Shown here: piece by piece, positions 14,397 to 21,365 of the stretch | Layout: every line of letters begins with the position of its first letter | Position numbering within the stretch: the first letter of the stretch is position 1 | NCBI GenBank assembly: GCA_050742455.1 | Contig: JBOGIG010000076.1 | Span: forward strand, 20,204 to 84,203 | Direction of reading: 5' to 3' | From: Acidimicrobiales bacterium | GTDB lineage: Bacteria; Actinomycetota; Acidimicrobiia; Acidimicrobiales; JBOGIG01 | Length of the DNA stretch: 64,000 nt | The notes under the pieces: model-generated | What the model was told of the DNA's origin: nothing | The model's input: only the letters and a program-made list of their open reading frames with translations | Database searches by the model: none | Translations under genes and position numbers: made by a program

Positions 14397-14468
14397 ATGC
14401 ACATAGTGGCCCAGATGCACATAGTGGCTCCCAGATGCACATAGTGGCTCCCAGATGCACATAGTGGC
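14397..14468. repeat. Tandem array (18+20+20 nt plus partial) of the selB start region, ATGCACATAGTGGC x4
   Basis: Copies start at 14397, 14415, 14435 and 14455. The last is the selB initiation codon. Confidence 0.95.
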
Positions 14469-16242
14469 CACAGCCGGTCACGTGGACCACGGGAAGTCCA
14501 CCCTGATCAAGGCCCTAACCGGCACCGATCCGGATCGCTGGCAAGAAGAGCGTGATCGTGGTCTGACCATCGACTTGGGCTTCGCTTTCGCTTCGTTGGC
14601 TTCGGGTCGGCCGGTCTCCTTCATCGATGTACCAGGCCACTCCCGCTTCATCGCCAACATGCTCGCCGGGGTCGGGTCAGTAAATGCCTGCCTGTTTGTG
14701 GTAGCCGCCACCGAGGGCTGGAAGCCCCAGTCCGAAGAACACCTTCGCATCCTTGAGCTGGTGGGCCTGGATCGGGGGGTGGTGGCCCTGACGAAGACCG
14801 CCGGCTTGGGCTCCGGTGAGATCCAAGATGCCGAGCGGGCGGTCCGAGCCCACCTGGCCGACACCTTTCTCGACGGAACCGAAGTGATCCCGGTCGACGC
14901 CCCGCGGCACTTGGGTATGGCCGATCTCGACGCCGGCTTGGACCGGATGCTGTCCGACGCCCCCAGGGCGGCTGACCGCCACAGACCGCGCTTGTGGGTA
15001 GACCGTTCCTTTTTCATCCGGGGCGCCGGCAATGTGATCACCGGGACACTGAGTAACGGCAGCCTGACGGTGGGAGACGACATGGTCGTGGTGGGGCCGG
15101 GCTATCCCCGCCGGGGTGCACCGGCCCGTATCCGGTCGATTCAGACCCAGGGACTGTCGGTGGGCACGATCGGCCCTGGCCACCGGGTTGCCGTCAACTT
15201 GACCGGGATGGGCTACCGGGTGCCCAAGCGAGGCGACGCCCTGGTCCGAGACAGCCAGTGGGAGCCGTCCGCCACCCTCGATGTCGCCTTGGAGGTGCTC
15301 GCCGGCCTCGATCACCCGGTCAGCAGGCGGGGGTCCTTCCAGATCCACATCGGTTCCGCCGAACTCTCCGTGCGCCTGCGGGTTCTCGGGCCCGATCGAA
15401 TAGCGCCAGGTGAGCGCCGACCGGTGCGGCTGCACCTGGATCAGATCCTGGCAGTGGCTCCCGGCGATCGCTTCGTCATCAGGGAGTCCGGGCGAGCCGA
15501 GACCATCGGAGGTGGTGAGATCCTCGATGTCTCCCCTGTCCTTCCCGCCTCCCGTGCCAACCCCGATCGCAACCTTGATCGGGTCGTGGAGGAGAGGGGC
15601 TGGATCGAGCCTGACCACCTGACGCGCCTGACCGGCGAGCGCCTGGCCCCCAATGTGGCTGGACGATGGATTGCCAGCCCCGGGGCGCTTTCGGATGTCA
15701 CCACCGCCCTGGGTTCGGCCCTGGACAATGCCGGGCCAGGAGGATTGGACCTGGCTCAATTGGATGGCCGCCAGAGAGCCATCCTCGCAGAGTGGGCGGA
15801 GTCGGGGGTTGCCACGATCCGGGCAGGCCGGGCTTGGGTTCAGGCCGGTTCGGACCCCGGGCCGGACAAGGAATTCGGGCCGGACAAGGAATTCGTGGCT
15901 GCCATCGAAGCATCGCCATTTGCACCGCCCACCCCCGAGGAAATGGGCATCTCTCGGGCAGATGTTCGCCGGTTGGTTGCGGAGGGAGAGGTGATAGAGC
16001 GAGATGGGCACTTCTTTAGCCCCCAAGCCGTGGCCCAGGCGGCCCGCGTGGTGGCCCGCCTGCTGTCGGAGAACCCGGATGGGATAACGGTGGCGACTTT
16101 GCGGGACGAATTGGCCACTTCGCGCAAGTTCCTGCTGCCTCTGCTCAACTATCTTGACGCCGAGGGCGTCACCCGCAGGCGAGGCGATCGGCGCGTGGCC
16201 GGACCCCGCCTGCCCCGCAGCGACACAATGGGCGGCGTATAG
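14455..16242 (+). CDS. selB: Selenocysteine-specific translation elongation factor
   Basis: MHIVATAGHVDHGKSTL (G1), DVPGH (G3), an EF-Tu-like domain set, and a long C-terminal winged-helix region (about 595 aa). Confidence 0.9.
   Translation: MHIVATAGHVDHGKSTLIKALTGTDPDRWQEERDRGLTIDLGFAFASLASGRPVSFIDVPGHSRFIANMLAGVGSVNACLFVVAATEGWKPQSEEHLRILELVGLDRGVVALTKTAGLGSGEIQDAERAVRAHLADTFLDGTEVIPVDAPRHLGMADLDAGLDRMLSDAPRAADRHRPRLWVDRSFFIRGAGNVITGTLSNGSLTVGDDMVVVGPGYPRRGAPARIRSIQTQGLSVGTIGPGHRVAVNLTGMGYRVPKRGDALVRDSQWEPSATLDVALEVLAGLDHPVSRRGSFQIHIGSAELSVRLRVLGPDRIAPGERRPVRLHLDQILAVAPGDRFVIRESGRAETIGGGEILDVSPVLPASRANPDRNLDRVVEERGWIEPDHLTRLTGERLAPNVAGRWIASPGALSDVTTALGSALDNAGPGGLDLAQLDGRQRAILAEWAESGVATIRAGRAWVQAGSDPGPDKEFGPDKEFVAAIEASPFAPPTPEEMGISRADVRRLVAEGEVIERDGHFFSPQAVAQAARVVARLLSENPDGITVATLRDELATSRKFLLPLLNYLDAEGVTRRRGDRRVAGPRLPRSDTMGGV
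15859..15894. repeat. Perfect in-frame 18-bp tandem duplication inside selB (GPDKEF GPDKEF)
   Basis: GGGCCGGACAAGGAATTC x2, read directly. Confidence 0.95.
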
Positions 16243-16333: not shown

Positions 16334-17293
16334 ATGGCGGACGCCACCAGATCAGGGCGAAGCCCAAACACGCCAGGGCGAAGCCCCGGTTCCCAGGGCA
16401 AGAGATCCAAGGCCAAGGGCAAGGGCTCCAACCAGAAAGGCCGACGCAGACGATCGAACAGCTCCGCTGTCATCGTTACTTCCTCCGCGTTGGTTGTCGT
16501 AGCCGTGGTGGCGGTCCTCATTGTGGTGAACCTGACCAGGTCCAAGACGGCGGCCTCCTCGACCACCGGGGCCCAGCCCAACGTCGTGGCGGCCACGACG
16601 GGGCTGACCTCGTCCCAACTGAGCAGCGCCGGAGTGGGCTCCGGAGCGGTCTCCCCGCCTGTGGCCACCAAGGGCGCCACCCCCCTGGTCTCCAATGGAA
16701 AGCCGGAGGTGCTCTACATCGGCGCCGAGTACTGCCCCTATTGTGCGGCCGAACGCTGGCCCATGGTGGTGGCCCTCAGCCGCTTTGGGACCTTCTCGCA
16801 CCTGGGCCAGACCGAGTCCTCCACTACCGACAAGTACCCCGGGACCAAGACCTTCAGCTTCTACGGATCTACCTACTCCAGCCGCTACCTGACCTTCACG
16901 CCGGTGGAGACCCAGACCAATCAGCCGGCCAAGAGCGGCGGCGGCTATGTCACCTTGCAGACCCCCACCCCGGCCCAGCAGAAGCTCCAGCTCAAATACG
17001 ATGCGGCTCCGTACACCACGTCGCCCGGCATTCCCTTCATAGACTTCGGGAACAAGTACCTGGTCCTCGGGGCCAGCTACAACCCATCAGTTCTCCAGGG
17101 CCTGTCCATGGCCACCATCGCCGGCAGCCTGAGCGACCCGTCCAGCCCTCCGGCCAAGGCCATCCTGGGCACGTCCAACCTTCTCACCGCAGCTATCTGC
17201 AAGATGACGGGTGAAATGCCCGCCTCGGTGTGCGCCACTCCATCCATCACCAAGGCCGAGGCGGCCCTCAAGCCGCCGCCGGCCGGCGCTTAG
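16334..17293 (+). CDS. DUF929-type membrane-anchored thioredoxin-fold protein (CPYC motif)
   Basis: Basic N-terminus, one TM segment ([12 protein letters not shown]), and [27 protein letters not shown], typical of DUF929. Confidence 0.8.
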
Positions 17294-17322
17294 TGCTCGG
17301 GCGCAGTCCGGCACGGGCATAG

Positions 17323-17829
17323 ATGGAGAGTCGGACGGATCTGAAAGGCAAGCCTGCCGACGTCGTCGCTTCGGGCTATGGGTGGCTGCCCACGGCGGCG
17401 TGGCTGGTGTCACTGGCCGGTCTGGCCGTGGCCACGTATCTGACGATCGCCCACTACGACACCCACGTCCACCTGGCCTGCAGCTCCAGCGGTCTCATTA
17501 ATTGCGAGCAGGTGACAACCAGCCCCCAGTCCGTGATCTTCGGCATCCCAGTGGCGGTCCTGGGACTGGCTTACTTCACCGTCATGAGCGTGCTGAACGC
17601 ACCCTTGGTGTGGCGTAGGGCGCCGGCTCGGGCGGGCATGGTCCGGTTGGTCCTGGCCATGGGGGGCATGGGCTTTGTCCTGTACCTGGTCTACGCCGAG
17701 TTGGTTCTCATCAATGCCATTTGTCTGTGGTGCACTACTACCCACGTCCTGGCCTTCGGCCTGTTCATCTTGGTTCTGTTGGGCAGCACCCGGATGCAAT
17801 GGTGGCCCGGGGCCGAAGAGTCCGATTAG
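17323..17829 (+). CDS. Vitamin K epoxide reductase (VKOR) family protein
   Basis: Four predicted TM segments, loop cysteines LACSSSGLINCEQV, and the active-site CLWC in the last TM region. Confidence 0.85.
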   Translation: MESRTDLKGKPADVVASGYGWLPTAAWLVSLAGLAVATYLTIAHYDTHVHLACSSSGLINCEQVTTSPQSVIFGIPVAVLGLAYFTVMSVLNAPLVWRRAPARAGMVRLVLAMGGMGFVLYLVYAELVLINAICLWCTTTHVLAFGLFILVLLGSTRMQWWPGAEESD

Positions 17830-17835
17830 GCCTGG

Positions 17836-17876
17836 CCACCACTGGCCCCAGCCCCACCACTGGCCCCAGCCACCGC
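17836..17876. repeat. 17/18-bp tandem repeat (CCACCACTGGCCCCAGC x about 2.4) in the VKOR/whiB convergent spacer
   Basis: Read directly from the sequence. Confidence 0.8.
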
Positions 17877-17915
17877 TATGCGATCCCCTCAGCCAGACTG
17901 GCCACTGGGTGGCGG

Positions 17916-18179
17916 CTAGACCGCCTGCTTGGCCAGGCGGGCCTTGCGCTCGGTCTCGTTGAGCCCTCCCCAGATACCGTGTGGCTCTCGTATGGCCAGC
18001 GCGTAGTCCAGGCAATCGGCCCGTACCGGGCAGGAAAAACAGATGGCCTTGGCCTTGTTTTCCCTGCTCGCCTTGTATTCCTTGCGTTCAAAATGGGACG
18101 GCGGAAAGAACACGGCGGCCTGGGGCCCACGACACGCGGCCCGGTCCTGCCAAAGTTCCTCGATTCTCTGAATGCTCAC
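17916..18179 (-). CDS. whiB: WhiB-family Fe-S transcriptional regulator
   Basis: The four Cys pattern C..(n)..C..C.....C (AACRG...ICFSCPVRADC) plus GIWGG. GTG start preceded by GGGGGAG. Confidence 0.9.
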   Translation of the reverse strand: MSIQRIEELWQDRAACRGPQAAVFFPPSHFERKEYKASRENKAKAICFSCPVRADCLDYALAIREPHGIWGGLNETERKARLAKQAV

Positions 18180-18234
18180 TGCTCCCCCTTACCCAAGGCA
18201 GGCTAGTTCCGGGCTTCCGACCGCCACAAGGGCC

Positions 18235-18263
18235 TTGAGCAGGTATTTTGTCCAGCATACTAT
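18235..18263 (+). promoter_or_regulatory. Candidate sigma-70-type promoter TTGAGC-N17-TACTAT upstream of the first ArsA-like gene
   Basis: Hexamers at 18235-18240 and 18258-18263 with a 17-nt spacer, in the only visibly AT-richer patch of the whiB/arsA divergent spacer. Sequence pattern only. Confidence 0.3.
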
Positions 18264-18341
18264 GCCATTTTCTAACAGAAGACCCCTTGGCGCCCCCCGG
18301 TCCAGCGCGCCGGGAGGACCAAGCCGTATTATTCGCCGGGC

Positions 18342-19304
18342 ATGAACGTAGCCACCTTCTGCCGGCAAAGCAGAGTAGTGATAGTGGCAGGCAAGGGGGG
18401 CGTGGGGAAGACCACGGTCACCGCCGCCCTGGCCCGCATGGCAGCCCAAGCGGGCCTGGACGTGTTGGTGTGCGAGCTGGAGGGCAAGAGCGGATTGGCC
18501 GGCGCCTTTGGCCTCGATGAGGAACTGGGCTACCGGGAGGTGGAACTCTGGTCCAACGGAGCCTCGGTGCCCGGCACGGTTCGGGGCCAGGCCCTTACAC
18601 CCGACGACGCTCTGATCGAGTACCTCAACGATCACGGTCTCAAGCGAGTGTCCAAGCGCCTGGCGGCGAGCGGAACCCTCGACGTGGTAGCCACAGCGGC
18701 CCCGGGAATCCAAGACATCCTCGTTCTGGCCAAGATCAAGAGCCTGGCCAATAGCGGGCAGGTCGATCTGATCGTGGTCGATGCGCCGGCAGCCGGGCAT
18801 GCCGTGACTTTCCTGACCAGCGCCCACGGGCTGTTGGACTCGGTACGGGTGGGCCCCATCCGCGCTCAGGCCACCGACGTGATCGACATGTTGAGCGATC
18901 CGACCCGATGCCAGGTCCTGCTCGTGACCCTGCCCGAGGAAACGCCGGTCAATGAGGTCACCGACACCGCCTTCCTTCTCGAGGACCGGGTGGGTGTCAG
19001 TCTGGGACCGGTGGTGGTGAACGGCGTATACCCGGTGCTGACCGGCCTGGAAGTCGATCCCATACAGGCCGCAGCAGACCTCAACGAGCGCCTGAGCGCC
19101 CCCATGGCGCAAAGCTTGGCTGCTGCGGCCCGGTTCAGACTCCAACGCCAGGAGCTCCAGGCCACCCAGATACAACGGCTGACTCAGGCCCTGCCCCTGC
19201 CCCAATTGGCCATCCCCTACTTGTTCCACCCCCACATGGGACCGCCTGAGATTGCCACCCTGTCCTCCGCCCTCGCCGACTGTGTGGAGGGGCTGGCCGG
19301 ATGA
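18342..19304 (+). CDS. ArsA/Get3-like P-loop ATPase (first of a pair)
   Basis: VIVAGKGGVGKTTVTAALA deviant Walker A and VVDAPAAGH. It is paired with a paralog next to whiB, as I recall for actinobacterial Rv3680/Rv3679-type loci. Confidence 0.85.
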   Translation: MNVATFCRQSRVVIVAGKGGVGKTTVTAALARMAAQAGLDVLVCELEGKSGLAGAFGLDEELGYREVELWSNGASVPGTVRGQALTPDDALIEYLNDHGLKRVSKRLAASGTLDVVATAAPGIQDILVLAKIKSLANSGQVDLIVVDAPAAGHAVTFLTSAHGLLDSVRVGPIRAQATDVIDMLSDPTRCQVLLVTLPEETPVNEVTDTAFLLEDRVGVSLGPVVVNGVYPVLTGLEVDPIQAAADLNERLSAPMAQSLAAAARFRLQRQELQATQIQRLTQALPLPQLAIPYLFHPHMGPPEIATLSSALADCVEGLAG

Positions 19305-19391
19305 TCCCGGCCGACCGTGTGGAGGGGCTGGCCGGATGATCCCGGCCGACCGTGTGGAGGGGCTGGCCGGATGATCCCGGCCGACCGTGTA
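19282..19391. repeat. Perfect 35-bp tandem triplication (GTGTGGAGGGGCTGGCCGGATGATCCCGGCCGACC x3 plus partial) spanning the stop of the first ArsA-like gene
   Basis: Units 19282-19316, 19317-19351 and 19352-19386 are identical. Each contains an ATGA. Confidence 0.95.
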
Positions 19392-19405
19392 GCGGAGCCC
19401 CGCCG

Positions 19406-20503
19406 GTGAACTTGGCTGAGCTGGTCCGAGACCGCGCCATCATCGTGTGCTGCGGCTCCGGAGGGGTGGGAAAGACGACCGTCGCCGCCGCCTTGGCCGT
19501 GGGGGCGGCGGAGCGGGGTAGGCGGGTGTGCGTAGTAACCATCGACCCAGCCAAGCGCTTGGCCGACGCCCTGGGACTGGGATCACTGACCAATGAGCCG
19601 GGCCGGGTGGCAGGTGATTGGTCCGGCGAATTGTGGGCGCTGATGCTGGACACCAAGGGAACCTTTGACTCCCTGGTCACCCGCTACGCAGCCAACCCGG
19701 CCCAGGCGGAATCGATCATCAACAACCGCCTGTACCGCAATATCTCGGGCGCCCTGTCGGGTACGTCTGAATACATGGCGATCGAGAAGCTGTACCAGCT
19801 TCACGACGAGGGCGGCTTCGACCTGATCGTCGTCGACACGCCCCCGACCCGCAACGCCCTGGATTTTCTCAATGCTCCCAAACGCCTGACCCGGTTCCTG
19901 GACAATCGAGTCTTTCGTCTTCTCATCACCCCTACCCGCGCCTACATGAAGGCGGTCAGTGTGGCCACCCAGGCCCTCCTACGCACGATGTCCAAGGTGG
20001 TTGGAACCGAAGTGGTGCGCGACACCATTGCCTTCTTCCAGGCCTTTGAGGGTATGGAACAGGGTTTTCGGGACCGGGCTTCGCTCATGCTCGAGTTGCT
20101 CGGTCAAACCGACACGGCGTTTGTCCTGGTGACGTCGCCCCGCCCCGACGCCATCGAGGAGGCAATGTACTTCGCCGACAAGCTGGCTCAATCGGAAATG
20201 TCGTTTCAAGCCTTGGTCGTCAATCGACTCCACCCCCGATTCGGGAGCGAAGACGTGCCCCTCCCACCTGGGCCGGAGGGGCCCGCCACCTCGCCTGACA
20301 ATCCTGTTCTGGCAACGCTGCGCACCAACCTGGCCGAGCTGCGCGGCGTGGCAGTGCGCGAAGAGGCTCAGTTTGCCGAGGTGGCCGACAAGGTGTCGCC
20401 CGCCCCCGTGGCAAGGGTTCCCTTCTTGTCCTCGGACGTCCACGACGTCGCCGGGCTGGAGGAAGTGGCCACCCACCTATTCGCCACCGGACTCGTCGAA
20501 TAG
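19406..20503 (+). CDS. ArsA/Get3-like P-loop ATPase (second of the pair)
   Basis: GTG 19406 gives VNLAELVRDRAIIVCCGSGGVGKTTVAAALA; also VVDTPPTRNALDFL. The ORF-track start at 19352 lies inside repeat copy 3, so the exact start is uncertain. Confidence 0.8.
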   Translation: MNLAELVRDRAIIVCCGSGGVGKTTVAAALAVGAAERGRRVCVVTIDPAKRLADALGLGSLTNEPGRVAGDWSGELWALMLDTKGTFDSLVTRYAANPAQAESIINNRLYRNISGALSGTSEYMAIEKLYQLHDEGGFDLIVVDTPPTRNALDFLNAPKRLTRFLDNRVFRLLITPTRAYMKAVSVATQALLRTMSKVVGTEVVRDTIAFFQAFEGMEQGFRDRASLMLELLGQTDTAFVLVTSPRPDAIEEAMYFADKLAQSEMSFQALVVNRLHPRFGSEDVPLPPGPEGPATSPDNPVLATLRTNLAELRGVAVREEAQFAEVADKVSPAPVARVPFLSSDVHDVAGLEEVATHLFATGLVE

Positions 20504-20827
20504 CGACGCCGCAGCTTCCTCGATGGTTTCTGCCACGGTCACAATCCGGTCGAATCCGGTGGTCTTGAGCAACCGGGTCAACGTGGGCCGGCTACAGGTG
20601 ACGGCCACGTCTCCGCCCATTTCACGGGCTCTGCGTATACCCCCGATGAGAGCTCCGAGGCCCGCCGAGTCGACGAACGGCACCTCCGACATGTCGATCA
20701 ACAGTCTCGGGCTCGATGCCAGATCGGCCAGGGATTCGCGAAACTGGCTGACGGTGTAGGCATCCAGTTCCCCCACCGGTCGGCAGATGGTGTAACCCTC
20801 GGCCTGTTCGACCTCGACGCTGAGCAA
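20477..20827 (-). CDS. STAS-domain anti-sigma-factor antagonist (SpoIIAA-like)
   Basis: TTG 20827 is preceded by AAGAGGAGG. The product (LLSVEVEQAEGYTICRPVGELDAYT...MSEVPFVDSAGLGALIG) shows the STAS pattern with the DSAG phosphorylatable-serine motif. Confidence 0.8.
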   Translation of the reverse strand: MLSVEVEQAEGYTICRPVGELDAYTVSQFRESLADLASSPRLLIDMSEVPFVDSAGLGALIGGIRRAREMGGDVAVTCSRPTLTRLLKTTGFDRIVTVAETIEEAAASLFDESGGE

Positions 20828-20921
20828 GCGGACCTCCTCTTGGTTCGTCTGTTCCCGGACCAGATCTATCCAATCGCCCGGGGTCGTAACCGGAGCGGGA
20901 GACGCACTACCCTCTGGGGCC

Positions 20922-21365
20922 GTGCCGGAATTTCTGATCGCCAGCGACGAAGTTACCGTAATCGACGATATCGCCTCCGTCCTCGACGGGCCGGGGAACA
21001 CCGTGCGCCACGTAAAAGCCGGAGGGGCCGTTCTGGGTGAACTACAGGCCCGACGAGCCGACCTGGTGATCCTGGACATGCAAATCGGGAACATGGGAGC
21101 GATGGCGGTGTGCATGGACCTGCGCCTGGAGGAAGGGGCCGGTCGGGTGGAACACACACCGGTGCTGATCATGGCTGATCGCCGAGCCGACGTTTTCCTG
21201 GCCCGCCGTGCCGGCGCCGAGGGGTGGGTGGTCAAGCCCTTCGACTCCCTGCGGGTACGCCGGGCGGTGAAGGCCCTGCTGGATGGGGGCACGTTTCACG
21301 ACGCCTCCTACCGCCCGACGCCGGTGATGTCCGTGCCCGTCCCCGGCGACGGAGACGTCGAGTAG
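20922..21365 (+). CDS. Single-domain response regulator (CheY-like receiver)
   Basis: LIASDE acidic pocket, DLVILDMQIGNMG (phospho-Asp), and VVKPF (conserved Lys). No output domain. Confidence 0.75.
   Translation: MPEFLIASDEVTVIDDIASVLDGPGNTVRHVKAGGAVLGELQARRADLVILDMQIGNMGAMAVCMDLRLEEGAGRVEHTPVLIMADRRADVFLARRAGAEGWVVKPFDSLRVRRAVKALLDGGTFHDASYRPTPVMSVPVPGDGDVE

What the first reader, a model, noticed from the sequence alone, without database searches (positions are those of the whole stretch)
19276..19409. Perfect 35-bp triplication forms a relay of stop-start overlaps between the two ArsA/Get3-like ATPase genes
Seen in sequence:
- The first ATPase gene ends at TGA 19302-19304, and that stop is embedded in ATGA (ATG 19301-19303).
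- That ATG opens a 12-codon mini-ORF (MIPADRVEGLAG) ending at TGA 19337-19339.
- This TGA is again embedded in ATGA (ATG 19336). A second identical mini-ORF ends at TGA 19372-19374, embedded in ATGA (ATG 19371).
- A third mini-ORF (MIPADRVAEPRR) ends at TGA 19407-19409, embedded in GTGA. That GTG (19406) is the best start for the second ATPase (VNLAELV..GSGGVGKTT).
- The repeat unit is exactly 35 nt, i.e. 12 codons minus the 1-nt backward step of an ATGA overlap. Every duplication therefore keeps the relay in register.
- The three units are identical, which suggests a recent event or one kept homogeneous.

Inference: the ancestral junction already had one relay mini-ORF. Copy number may tune termination-reinitiation efficiency and hence the stoichiometry of the two subunits. 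I am not aware of a described case of tandemly amplified coupling mini-ORFs.
Basis: partly seen in the sequence, partly recalled or inferred. Interest (0 to 1): 0.7.

Follow-up and report, generated by a model that had tools for sequence, protein, structure and literature searches.

The report
Variable 35-bp repeat bridging two ATPase genes
A 35-base repeat between two paired ATPase genes of a soil actinobacterium is real, occurs in one, two or three copies in near-identical strains, and each copy adds a tiny stop-start-linked reading frame, much as the known MIRU repeats of the tuberculosis bacillus do.

Summary
A perfect period-35 run covers 19282-19390. It forms three 12-codon mini-ORFs chained by ATGA/ATGA/ATGA/GTGA overlaps between a BagA-like gene (stop 19302-19304) and a BagB-like gene (GTG 19406).

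Two other assemblies, 99.8-99.9% identical in the flanks, carry one and two units. This is therefore a strain-variable minisatellite, and an assembly artefact is unlikely.

The closest distinct relative (76% BagB identity) and 120 of 144 surveyed Acidimicrobiales loci have a direct RTGA stop/start overlap. The mini-ORF is therefore derived.

The array grows by slippage between 11-bp direct repeats (GCCGACYGTGT) 35 bp apart. Each unit copies the ancestral GGAGG-N10-ATGA junction. Because 35 = 36-1, every copy automatically adds one relay ORF.

About six lineages evolved single relay mini-ORFs at this same junction; one shows a clear duplication footprint and another a suggestive one.

The relay probably keeps ribosome hand-over intact across a spacer that would otherwise be too long for coupling. 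That would explain why the expansions are tolerated. Nothing shows that copy number is selected to tune subunit ratio.

There is a published precedent: MIRU-VNTRs, for example the senX3-regX3 spacer with 1-7 × 77 bp plus one 53-bp unit. I rate this a new variant of a known kind, of moderate interest.

The parts
18342..19304 (+). bagA-like ArsA/Get3-family ATPase gene (320 aa). Its last 9 codons and stop lie in repeat unit 1.
   Evidence: Pfam ArsA_ATPase 5e-20. Best NCBIfam hit is BagA NF053622 at 147.7 bits, below the cut-off of 400. The C-terminus aligns to the end of the closest relative's BagA.
19275..19309 (+). Repeat unit A1: GCCGACTGTGTGGAGGGGCTGGCCGGATGATCCCG. It carries the bagA stop and ATGA.
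   Evidence: T at 19281 gives Cys314. The two-unit allele L083 has C there, giving Arg.
19310..19344 (+). Repeat unit A2, an extra copy that is absent from L001.
   Evidence: The alignment of the window with L001 shows a 70-nt insertion. The unit has 0 mismatches to the consensus.
19345..19379 (+). Repeat unit A3, an extra copy that is absent from both L001 and L083.
19380..19414 (+). Diverged unit B: GCCGACCGTGTAGCGGAGCCCCGCCGGTGAACTTG. It is 22/35 identical to unit A, carries GGAG and the GTGA bagB start, and is present in all three alleles.
   Evidence: Beyond the shared 11-mer the similarity is weak: 12/24, p about 0.02-0.14.
19301..19339 (+). Mini-ORF 1: MIPADRVEGLAG*. Its ATG overlaps the bagA TGA, and its TGA overlaps the next ATG.
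19336..19374 (+). Mini-ORF 2: MIPADRVEGLAG*.
19371..19409 (+). Mini-ORF 3: MIPADRVAEPRR*. Its TGA overlaps the bagB GTG. It is the only mini-ORF in the one-unit allele, where it reads MIPADRVAEPCR*.
19286..19290 (+). GGAGG Shine-Dalgarno-like motif 10 nt upstream of ATG 19301. It is repeated at 19321-19325 and 19356-19360. The same GGAGG-N10-ATGA geometry is seen in the closest relative L084.
   Evidence: Read directly from the sequence.
19394..19397 (+). GGAG 8 nt upstream of the bagB GTG 19406. In the predicted fold it pairs with GGGGCU of the last A unit.
   Evidence: MFE -38 kcal/mol, z -1.68, not significant.
19295..19312 (+). Hairpin GGCCGG-AUGAUC-CCGGCC with the AUGA in the loop. It is repeated at +35 and +70.
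   Evidence: The whole-region z-scores are not significant.
19406..20503 (+). bagB-like ArsA/Get3-family ATPase gene (365 aa).
   Evidence: NCBIfam BagB NF053621 at 1e-109 and 367 bits, below the cut-off of 521. Pfam ArsA_ATPase 4e-33. Source annotations call the same 365-aa product.

Best explanation
This is a strain-variable 35-bp minisatellite (VNTR) sitting exactly on the cistron junction of a bagA-bagB-like operon in an Acidimicrobiales bacterium.

Shown:
- Three near-identical assemblies carry 1, 2 and 3 A units, each followed by one diverged B unit.
- Both genes stay intact in every allele.
- The added units take the C of the downstream 11-mer GCCGACCGTGT and then the body of unit A. 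This is the footprint of slipped-strand mispairing or unequal exchange between the two 11-bp direct repeats 35 bp apart.
- Relatives have a single RTGA stop/start overlap at the homologous position.

Inferred:
- The one-unit state arose earlier, by a 35-bp duplication of that ancestral overlap.
- Each unit copies the ancestral GGAGG-N10-ATGA module, and 35 = 12 codons minus the 1-nt back-step. Each copy therefore automatically creates one more 12-codon ORF, starting on the previous stop and ending on the next start.
- This chain probably lets ribosomes that finish bagA reinitiate step by step. It probably also unfolds the structure that pairs the bagB GGAG. Coupling would then survive a 31-, 66- or 101-nt spacer that would otherwise be too long.
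- The relay is therefore best seen as the reason such expansions are tolerated, not as a device selected for tuning.
For: Repeat and ORF anatomy:
- establish the repeat and the mini-ORFs.

Copy-number alleles:
- L001 has 1 unit and L083 has 2 units.
- Flanks are 99.8-99.9% identical, with no other indel in 3.7-7 kb.

The mini-ORF is derived:
- L084, at 76% BagB identity, has a direct ATGA overlap.
- Window BagA residue 319 aligns with L084 residue 274 of 275, and window BagB residue 2 aligns with L084 residue 3.
- 66 of 79 GTDB loci and 54 of 65 metagenome loci have an in-frame RTGA overlap.

Recurrent origin:
- Single relay mini-ORFs of 11, 14, 14, 17 and 38 nt spacing occur in other lineages.
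- L065 has 15/17 nt duplicated around both GTGA, and L024 has 10/14.
- The 17-nt relay is kept in two species that are 84% identical.

The junction is a duplication hot spot:
- In-frame tandem repeats occur in the tails of both proteins in relatives.

Literature:
- Coupling is best at -4 to +3 nt and is largely lost beyond 30-40 nt. A short ORF can deliver ribosomes to the next gene. MIRU ORFs couple at -4 nt (PMC12548453).
Against: - No expression data exist for this uncultured organism, so translation of the mini-ORFs and any coupling are inferred.
- bagB has its own GGAG and could initiate independently.
- Predicted RNA structures are not better than shuffles (z -0.4 to -1.7).
- The old A/B duplication is only weakly supported beyond the 11-mer (12/24).
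- Only three alleles are known, and reads were not available to confirm copy number.
- RTGA-linked mini-ORFs arise by chance 64 times in this window.
Confidence: 0.68

Rival explanations
1. Adaptive rheostat. Copy number of the relay units is under selection and sets the BagA:BagB translation ratio, acting like a contingency locus.
For: - Copy number varies (1, 2, 3) among strains that differ by only about 0.1-0.2% in the flanks.
- The register, SD and ATGA are kept in every unit.
- Every added -4 junction is a step at which hand-over can be lost, so output should depend on copy number (PMC12548453).
- BagA and BagB act together in mycobacteria (PMC10597346).
Against: - The units are identical because they are recent copies, so their conservation says nothing about selection.
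- None of about 144 related loci has a multi-copy relay.
- The bagB initiation region, formed by the last A unit plus B, is the same in all alleles.
- There is no phenotype or expression data.
Confidence: 0.12
2. Assembly or sequencing artefact. The extra units were created, or collapsed, by the assemblers.
For: All three sequences are metagenome-assembled, and no reads could be inspected. Tandem repeats are a known source of assembly error (general knowledge).
Against: - Three assemblies give three different clean integer copy numbers with exact 35-nt units.
- The T/C pattern is a consistent slippage footprint.
- The whole array (116 nt) is shorter than typical reads and than the final k-mers suggested by the contig names of the same submission series (k127/k141).
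- L083 does not break at the repeat.
Confidence: 0.05
3. Inserted mobile element. The 35 nt between the two RTGA came from a MIRU/MITE-like element that targets start codons and duplicates the RTGA as its target site, and was later amplified in tandem.
For: MIRUs are described as apparently mobile, inserting at start codons with tetranucleotide direct repeats (PMC12548453; PMC3184786). The unit contains a G+C-rich palindrome.
Against: - No other copy of unit A, unit B or the hairpin core is found in the 64-kb window or in the loci held at the time of the search (L001-L165), with up to 6 substitutions allowed.
- A 24-mer of the unit is absent from the JGI metagenome contigs.
- Unit A is simply the orthologous 3' end of bagA: 23/30 identical to L084 by my own count.
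Confidence: 0.05
4. Frameshift remnant. The single mini-ORF of the one-unit allele is the former N-terminal extension of BagB, which once started at the ATGA and was cut off by a 1-nt deletion. BagB now restarts at GTG 19406.
For: Many relatives start BagB at the overlap and have 10-20 extra N-terminal residues, with the P-loop 27-39 residues from the start. Mini-ORF plus BagB would give about 28.
Against: - GTG 19406 aligns within one codon of the start of the closest relative and of many others whose start lies in the RTGA overlap.
- It is itself embedded in GTGA. A duplicated junction explains this; a random frameshift does not.
- The peptide shows no similarity to the relatives' extensions.
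Confidence: 0.08

Closest known systems
MIRU-VNTR loci of the Mycobacterium tuberculosis complex, especially the senX3-regX3 spacer (ETR-D / MIRU04)
   Same: - Both are tandem units between two co-oriented operon genes.
- Each unit carries a small ORF whose ends overlap the neighbouring stop and start at -4 nt (PMC12548453, PMC3184786).
- Copy number varies between close strains: 1-7 × 77 bp plus one shorter variant unit of 53 bp (PMC2453075, PMC4213456).
- Here there are 1-3 × 35 bp plus one diverged terminal unit.
- Unit lengths 77, 53 and 35 are all 2 mod 3 (my arithmetic).
   Different: - MIRUs are a dispersed family of about 40-50 loci, thought to be mobile, 40-100 bp long and found in mycobacteria.
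- This unit is 35 bp and is found only at this locus in the sequence available.
- It is visibly a copy of the gene junction itself; unit 1 encodes the BagA C-terminus.
- It lies in Acidimicrobiales.
- Sequence relatedness to MIRUs was not tested.
Ordinary -4 nt (NTGA) translational coupling by termination-reinitiation or RNA unfolding
   Same: All four junctions are NTGA overlaps preceded by an SD-like motif. This is the commonest coupled spacing in prokaryotes and the state of this gene pair in 83% of relatives (PMC12548453).
   Different: Here the hand-over would need one to three intermediate 12-codon ORFs instead of a single overlap. Dependence of bagB on upstream translation is untested.
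Synthetic bicistronic designs and leader 'nonsense' ORFs used to boost or standardise translation
   Same: Both use a short, non-functional ORF with an internal SD whose stop overlaps the start of the target gene and delivers ribosomes to it (PMC12548453 ref 78; PMC13255528 abstract).
   Different: This case is natural, tandemly iterated and variable in copy number. It lies between two genes rather than at a 5' end.
BagA/BagB (Rv3679/Rv3680) paired Get3/ArsA-like ATPases of mycobacteria
   Same: The flanking genes give best NCBIfam hits to BagA and BagB. They are adjacent and co-oriented. bagAB is implicated in protection from glycerol and nitric oxide toxicity (PMC10597346).
   Different: Scores are below the equivalog cut-offs. 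The organism is an Acidimicrobiales MAG, and function is not tested.

Membership tests
MIRU-VNTR | Tandem unit whose copy number differs between closely related strains | tested here: met
   1, 2 and 3 A units in L001, L083 and the window, with flanks 99.8-99.9% identical.
MIRU-VNTR | Lies between co-oriented genes of an operon, in one orientation | tested here: met
   It lies between the bagA stop and the bagB start on the + strand. No terminator-like or sigma-70-like site is found between them.
MIRU-VNTR | Unit contains a small ORF whose ends overlap the stop and start of its neighbours (-4 nt) | tested here: met
   ATGA, ATGA, ATGA and GTGA at 19301, 19336, 19371 and 19406.
MIRU-VNTR | Interspersed: the same unit family occurs at many loci of the genome | tested here: inconclusive
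   No other copy is found in the 64-kb window or in the loci held at the time (L001-L165). However, only 64 kb of this genome is visible, and at MIRU density fewer than one copy would be expected there.
MIRU-VNTR | Unit of 40-100 bp, related in sequence to the MIRU consensus, in Mycobacterium | not tested
   The unit is 35 bp. The organism is Acidimicrobiales according to the record titles of relatives. No MIRU sequence was available to compare.
-4 nt translationally coupled gene pair | Stop of the upstream ORF and start of the downstream ORF overlap as NTGA | tested here: met
   This holds at four successive junctions. A direct overlap is present in 120 of 144 related loci.
-4 nt translationally coupled gene pair | Translation of the downstream ORF depends on translation of the upstream ORF | not testable with these tools
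   This needs reporter fusions, toeprinting or ribosome profiling.
BagA/BagB ATPase pair | Proteins reach the NCBIfam equivalog cut-offs for BagA (400 bits) and BagB (521 bits) | tested here: not met
   147.7 and 367 bits. These are the best hits, but both are below the cut-off.
BagA/BagB ATPase pair | Two adjacent co-oriented ArsA/Get3-fold P-loop ATPases | tested here: met
   Pfam ArsA_ATPase matches both genes. The arrangement is conserved in about 144 loci.
Phase-variable contingency locus (repeat-driven ON/OFF switch) | A change in repeat number shifts a reading frame or alters a promoter, so that a gene is switched off | tested here: not met
   bagA (320 aa) and bagB (365 aa) are intact in the 1-, 2- and 3-unit alleles. 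In L083, bagB is cut only by the contig end. The only coding effect is BagA C314R.

The most novel reading that the evidence does not exclude
Duplicating an overlapping stop/start junction may be a general way in which MIRU-like 'coupling mini-ORF' repeats are born. In this lineage the resulting 35-bp VNTR would then be a selected, rapidly mutating rheostat that sets the BagA:BagB subunit ratio through the number of termination-reinitiation steps.
Probability: 0.12. Interest if true: 0.7.

Novelty: new variant of a known kind. Interest (0 to 1): 0.4.

Why it matters
The locus shows, caught in progress, how a tandem array of stop-start-linked mini-ORFs can arise from nothing more than slippage at an ATGA gene junction. 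It also suggests why such arrays would be tolerated: a unit length of 2 mod 3 keeps the ribosome relay intact.

That gives a simple origin model for MIRU-type intercistronic repeats outside mycobacteria. It also provides a natural allelic series (0, 1, 2 and 3 relay steps) for measuring how efficiently ribosomes are handed on at -4 nt junctions, which is still debated between the reinitiation and RNA-unfolding models.

Practically, the locus is a ready strain marker for this uncultured Acidimicrobiales population.

Tried and rejected
- Unit in public metagenomes: an exact 24-mer scan of the JGI contigs found nothing, so no further alleles were obtained that way.
- Known RNA families: Rfam at a permissive threshold over 17800-20600 gave only two sub-threshold hits outside the repeat.
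- Internal promoter or terminator: none was found, but the scan covers only the sigma-70 consensus.
- RNA structure: hairpins with the AUGA in the loop, and a fold pairing the bagB GGAG, are predicted. The z-scores (-0.4 to -1.7) are not significant, so structure is kept only as a weak inference.
- Dispersed copies: none were found.
- Wider indel comparison between strains: one exact-protein look-up found nothing and another returned only a 5-kb contig. The statement 'no other indel' therefore rests on 3.7-7 kb.
- Is the A/B similarity proof of an old duplication? The 22/35 identity is rare in the window (6e-5), but it is driven by the 11-mer. The remainder is only marginal.
- Alternative bagB start at GTG 19352 (the longest ORF): rejected. 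It has no SD, its peptide is unlike the relatives' N-termini, and it lies in repeat DNA.
- M. smegmatis gene-number gap (MSMEG_6194 between bagA and bagB): this is a beta-lactamase-like gene, not a mini-ORF.
Full report
**1. What is in the sequence**

Tandem Repeats Finder reports one array at 19275-19390: period 35, 3.3 copies, 98% matches. Self-comparison at lag 35 is perfect from 19282 to 19390, which is three complete identical units plus four bases. In the TRF register, the first unit has T at 19281 where the later units have C. The unit with up to three mismatches occurs three times in the window and never in 100 shuffles.

- Gene 1 ends at TGA 19302-19304, inside ATGA.
- ATG 19301 and ATG 19336 each open MIPADRVEGLAG*.
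- ATG 19371 opens MIPADRVAEPRR*.
- That ORF's TGA (19407-19409) overlaps GTG 19406.

The frames step back by one at each junction: bagA, then -1, -1, -1, into bagB.

**2. The flanking genes**

Both genes carry the Pfam ArsA_ATPase domain. Their best NCBIfam hits are BagA (147.7 bits, cut-off 400) and BagB (367 bits, cut-off 521). They are therefore BagA/BagB-like, not certified equivalogs. bagAB (Rv3679/Rv3680) is implicated in protecting M. tuberculosis from glycerol and nitric oxide toxicity (PMC10597346).

A whiB gene lies divergently upstream at 17916-18179. Titles of related records place the organism in Acidimicrobiales.

**3. The repeat is a copy-number polymorphism**

An exact look-up of the BagA protein returned contig CDAOJQ010000059.1 (GCA_973994725.1; L001). 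There bagA's stop and bagB's GTG are 31 nt apart instead of 101. The alignment shows a clean 70-nt gap, so L001 has one A unit.

A partial but identical BagB led to JBOGII010000054.1 (GCA_050744925.1; L083), which has two A units.

The flanks of the three sequences are 99.8-99.9% identical, with no other indel over 3.7-7 kb. In every allele the A units are followed by the same diverged unit B (GCCGACCGTGTAGCGGAGCCC[C/T]GCCGGTGAACTTG). Both genes stay intact.

Three different integer copy numbers in three assemblies make an artefact unlikely, although no reads could be checked.

**4. How the array grows**

The one-unit allele already has two 11-bp direct repeats 35 bp apart: GCCGACTGTGT at the end of bagA and GCCGACCGTGT in unit B. 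The extra units in the window begin with the C-type 11-mer and continue with the body of unit A. That is what mispairing of the downstream 11-mer on the upstream one would produce.

L083 has the C-type 11-mer in its first unit as well, which turns BagA Cys314 into Arg. Exchange within the array therefore also edits the BagA C-terminus.

Each unit contains the palindrome GGCCGG-ATGATC-CCGGCC. This may favour slippage, but that is inference.

**5. The mini-ORF is derived, not ancestral**

The closest distinct relative (L084, 76% BagB identity) has bagA and bagB overlapping by ATGA. Window BagA residue 319 aligns with residue 274 of 275 of L084 BagA. Window BagB residue 2 aligns with residue 3 of L084 BagB. 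The stop and start that form one ATGA in L084 are thus 35, 70 or 105 nt apart in the three alleles.

The wider survey gives the same picture:
- Among 79 evaluable species-level genomes, 66 have an in-frame RTG overlapping bagA's TGA. By my count of that call's listing, 47 of these have the P-loop within 25 residues of that start.
- Among 65 evaluable metagenome loci, 54 have such an overlap.

The conserved BagA C-terminal 'VEGL' codons supply GGAGG 10 nt before the overlapping start in L084, exactly as in every A unit. Unit A is therefore the ancestral junction module.

The one-unit state is best explained by an older 35-nt duplication of that junction. A and B share 22/35 positions, which is very rare in the window (6e-5). 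The signal is mostly the 11-mer, and the rest (12/24) is marginal. I treat this step as inferred.

**6. The same solution evolved repeatedly**

Among the loci without a direct overlap, several have a single mini-ORF that starts on bagA's RTGA and ends on bagB's RTGA:

| Locus | Spacing (nt) | Mini-ORF | Note |
|---|---|---|---|
| L003 | 11 | VMRS* | |
| L024 | 14 | VSGHR* | identical genome to L137 |
| L045 | 17 | MNVGAV* | |
| L133 | 17 | MNVAAA* | 84% nt identical to L045 |
| L065 | 38 | VTGSACAGHQEAQ* | |
| L120 | 14 | VRAGR* | |

L065 shows 15/17 identical bases around its two GTGA, and L024 shows 10/14, which are duplication footprints.

A rough chance expectation for such a two-sided relay at a gapped junction is about 3% per locus. 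It is the product of R before TGA (0.52) and A after RTG (0.22), both, with spacing class (1/3) and no in-frame stop (about 0.8; my own estimate). The observed count is eight of 24 non-overlap loci, representing about six lineages.

All gaps longer than 10 nt are of the relay type, but the numbers are small. In relatives, the tails of both proteins also carry in-frame tandem repeats of 6-30 nt. The junction is thus a duplication hot spot:
- Periods of 0 mod 3 become protein-tail extensions.
- Periods of 2 mod 3 become relay ORFs.

None of the other loci has a multi-copy relay.

**7. How it probably works**

According to a recent review, coupling is most efficient at -4 to +3 nt, falls 3-10-fold by about +40 nt, and is nearly absent beyond 30-40 nt in the latest systematic study. 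A short ORF can serve solely to deliver a ribosome to the next gene (PMC12548453).

Spacers of 31, 66 or 101 nt would therefore uncouple bagB from bagA unless they are bridged. Each A unit offers GGAGG-N10-AUG on the preceding UGA. The last A unit plus B can fold so that bagB's GGAG is paired (-38 kcal/mol, z -1.68, not significant).

My best reading is that ribosomes are handed on ORF by ORF, and that they open this structure. On that reading the expansions do little harm, which would let them persist. This is inference; no expression data exist.

Because bagB's immediate initiation region is identical in all alleles, any copy-number effect would come only from the number of hand-over steps.

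RTGA-linked mini-ORFs also arise by chance 64 times in this window. The pattern alone proves nothing.

**8. Comparison with what is known**

The closest precedent is the MIRU-VNTR class of mycobacteria:
- They are tandem intercistronic units with ORFs whose ends overlap the adjacent genes.
- They are coupled at -4 nt.
- They are thought to insert with minimal effect on expression (PMC12548453; PMC3184786).

The senX3-regX3 spacer has 1-7 copies of a 77-bp unit plus one 53-bp variant unit in different members of the complex (PMC2453075; PMC4213456). The lengths 77, 53 and 35 are all 2 mod 3.

The differences here are:
- The unit is 35 bp.
- It is not found anywhere else in the sequence available.
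- It is visibly derived from the junction itself.
- It lies in a different actinobacterial class.

I therefore call it a new variant of a known kind. It works like a MIRU-VNTR, but I do not file it as a member of that family.

**9. Verdict**

The single-relay allele and the register-keeping copy-number variation are real. The tuning hypothesis is untested and not favoured (about 0.12). The novelty claim is overstated.
- Interest is moderate (0.4). This is a clean natural example of how coupling mini-ORF arrays arise, with a ready-made allelic series for experiments, but in an uncultured organism and with a known analogue.

Noticed in passing
L003 2490-2504; L024 1329-1346 (= L137 1487-1504); L045 2484-2504; L133 1083-1103; L065 2448-2489; L120 1331-1348: Single relay mini-ORFs (RTGA...RTGA; spacings 11, 14, 17, 17, 38 and 14 nt) bridge the bagA stop and the bagB start in about five other Acidimicrobiales lineages. 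L065 has a 15/17-nt duplication footprint. The 17-nt relay is kept between two species that are 84% identical, while its peptide changes.
   Followed up: partly
L012 1913-2001; L014 2457-2500; L036 2444-2490; L074 2435-2477; L079 2446-2494: The BagA C-terminal tail and the BagB N-terminal tail of relatives carry in-frame tandem repeats (periods 6-30 nt). In L079 the repeat spans the junction. The region is a general hot spot for tandem duplication.
   Followed up: partly
window 19281 (L083 2911): The two-unit allele has C instead of T in the first unit, changing BagA Cys314 to Arg. Exchange within the repeat therefore also alters the BagA C-terminus.
   Followed up: partly
window 19400 (L001 3990, L083 2997): There is a C/T SNP in unit B between the GGAG and the bagB GTG. 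It changes the last mini-ORF peptide (Arg to Cys) and turns a G-C pair into G-U in the predicted fold that pairs the GGAG.
   Followed up: no
window about 20477-20827 (-), against the bagB stop at 20501-20503: The 116-aa STAS-domain gene called in L001 (5066-5416, minus strand) overlaps the 3' end of bagB convergently by about 27 nt. The 271-aa ORF listed mechanically here is probably an over-extension.
   Followed up: no
window 17868-17917 (-): Weak Rfam match to COG2908 RNA (21.2 bits against a gathering score of 58.7, E 0.021), next to the 3' end of whiB. It is probably chance.
   Followed up: no
window 16334-21365: The gene order DUF929 - VKOR - whiB(-) - bagA - bagB - STAS(-) - response regulator is shared by the window and L001; L083 and the 76%-identical relative L084 each show part of it.
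   Followed up: no
window 14455-16242 (+): A 595-aa ORF has a translation-GTPase N-terminus (GHVDHGKST) that resembles selenocysteine-specific elongation factor. This was judged by eye only and not tested.
   Followed up: no
window 19189-19203: There is a small perfect hexamer repeat, CCCTGC × 2.5, inside bagA. It is also present in L001, L002 and L014, so it is probably just the codons of a conserved LPLP motif.
   Followed up: no
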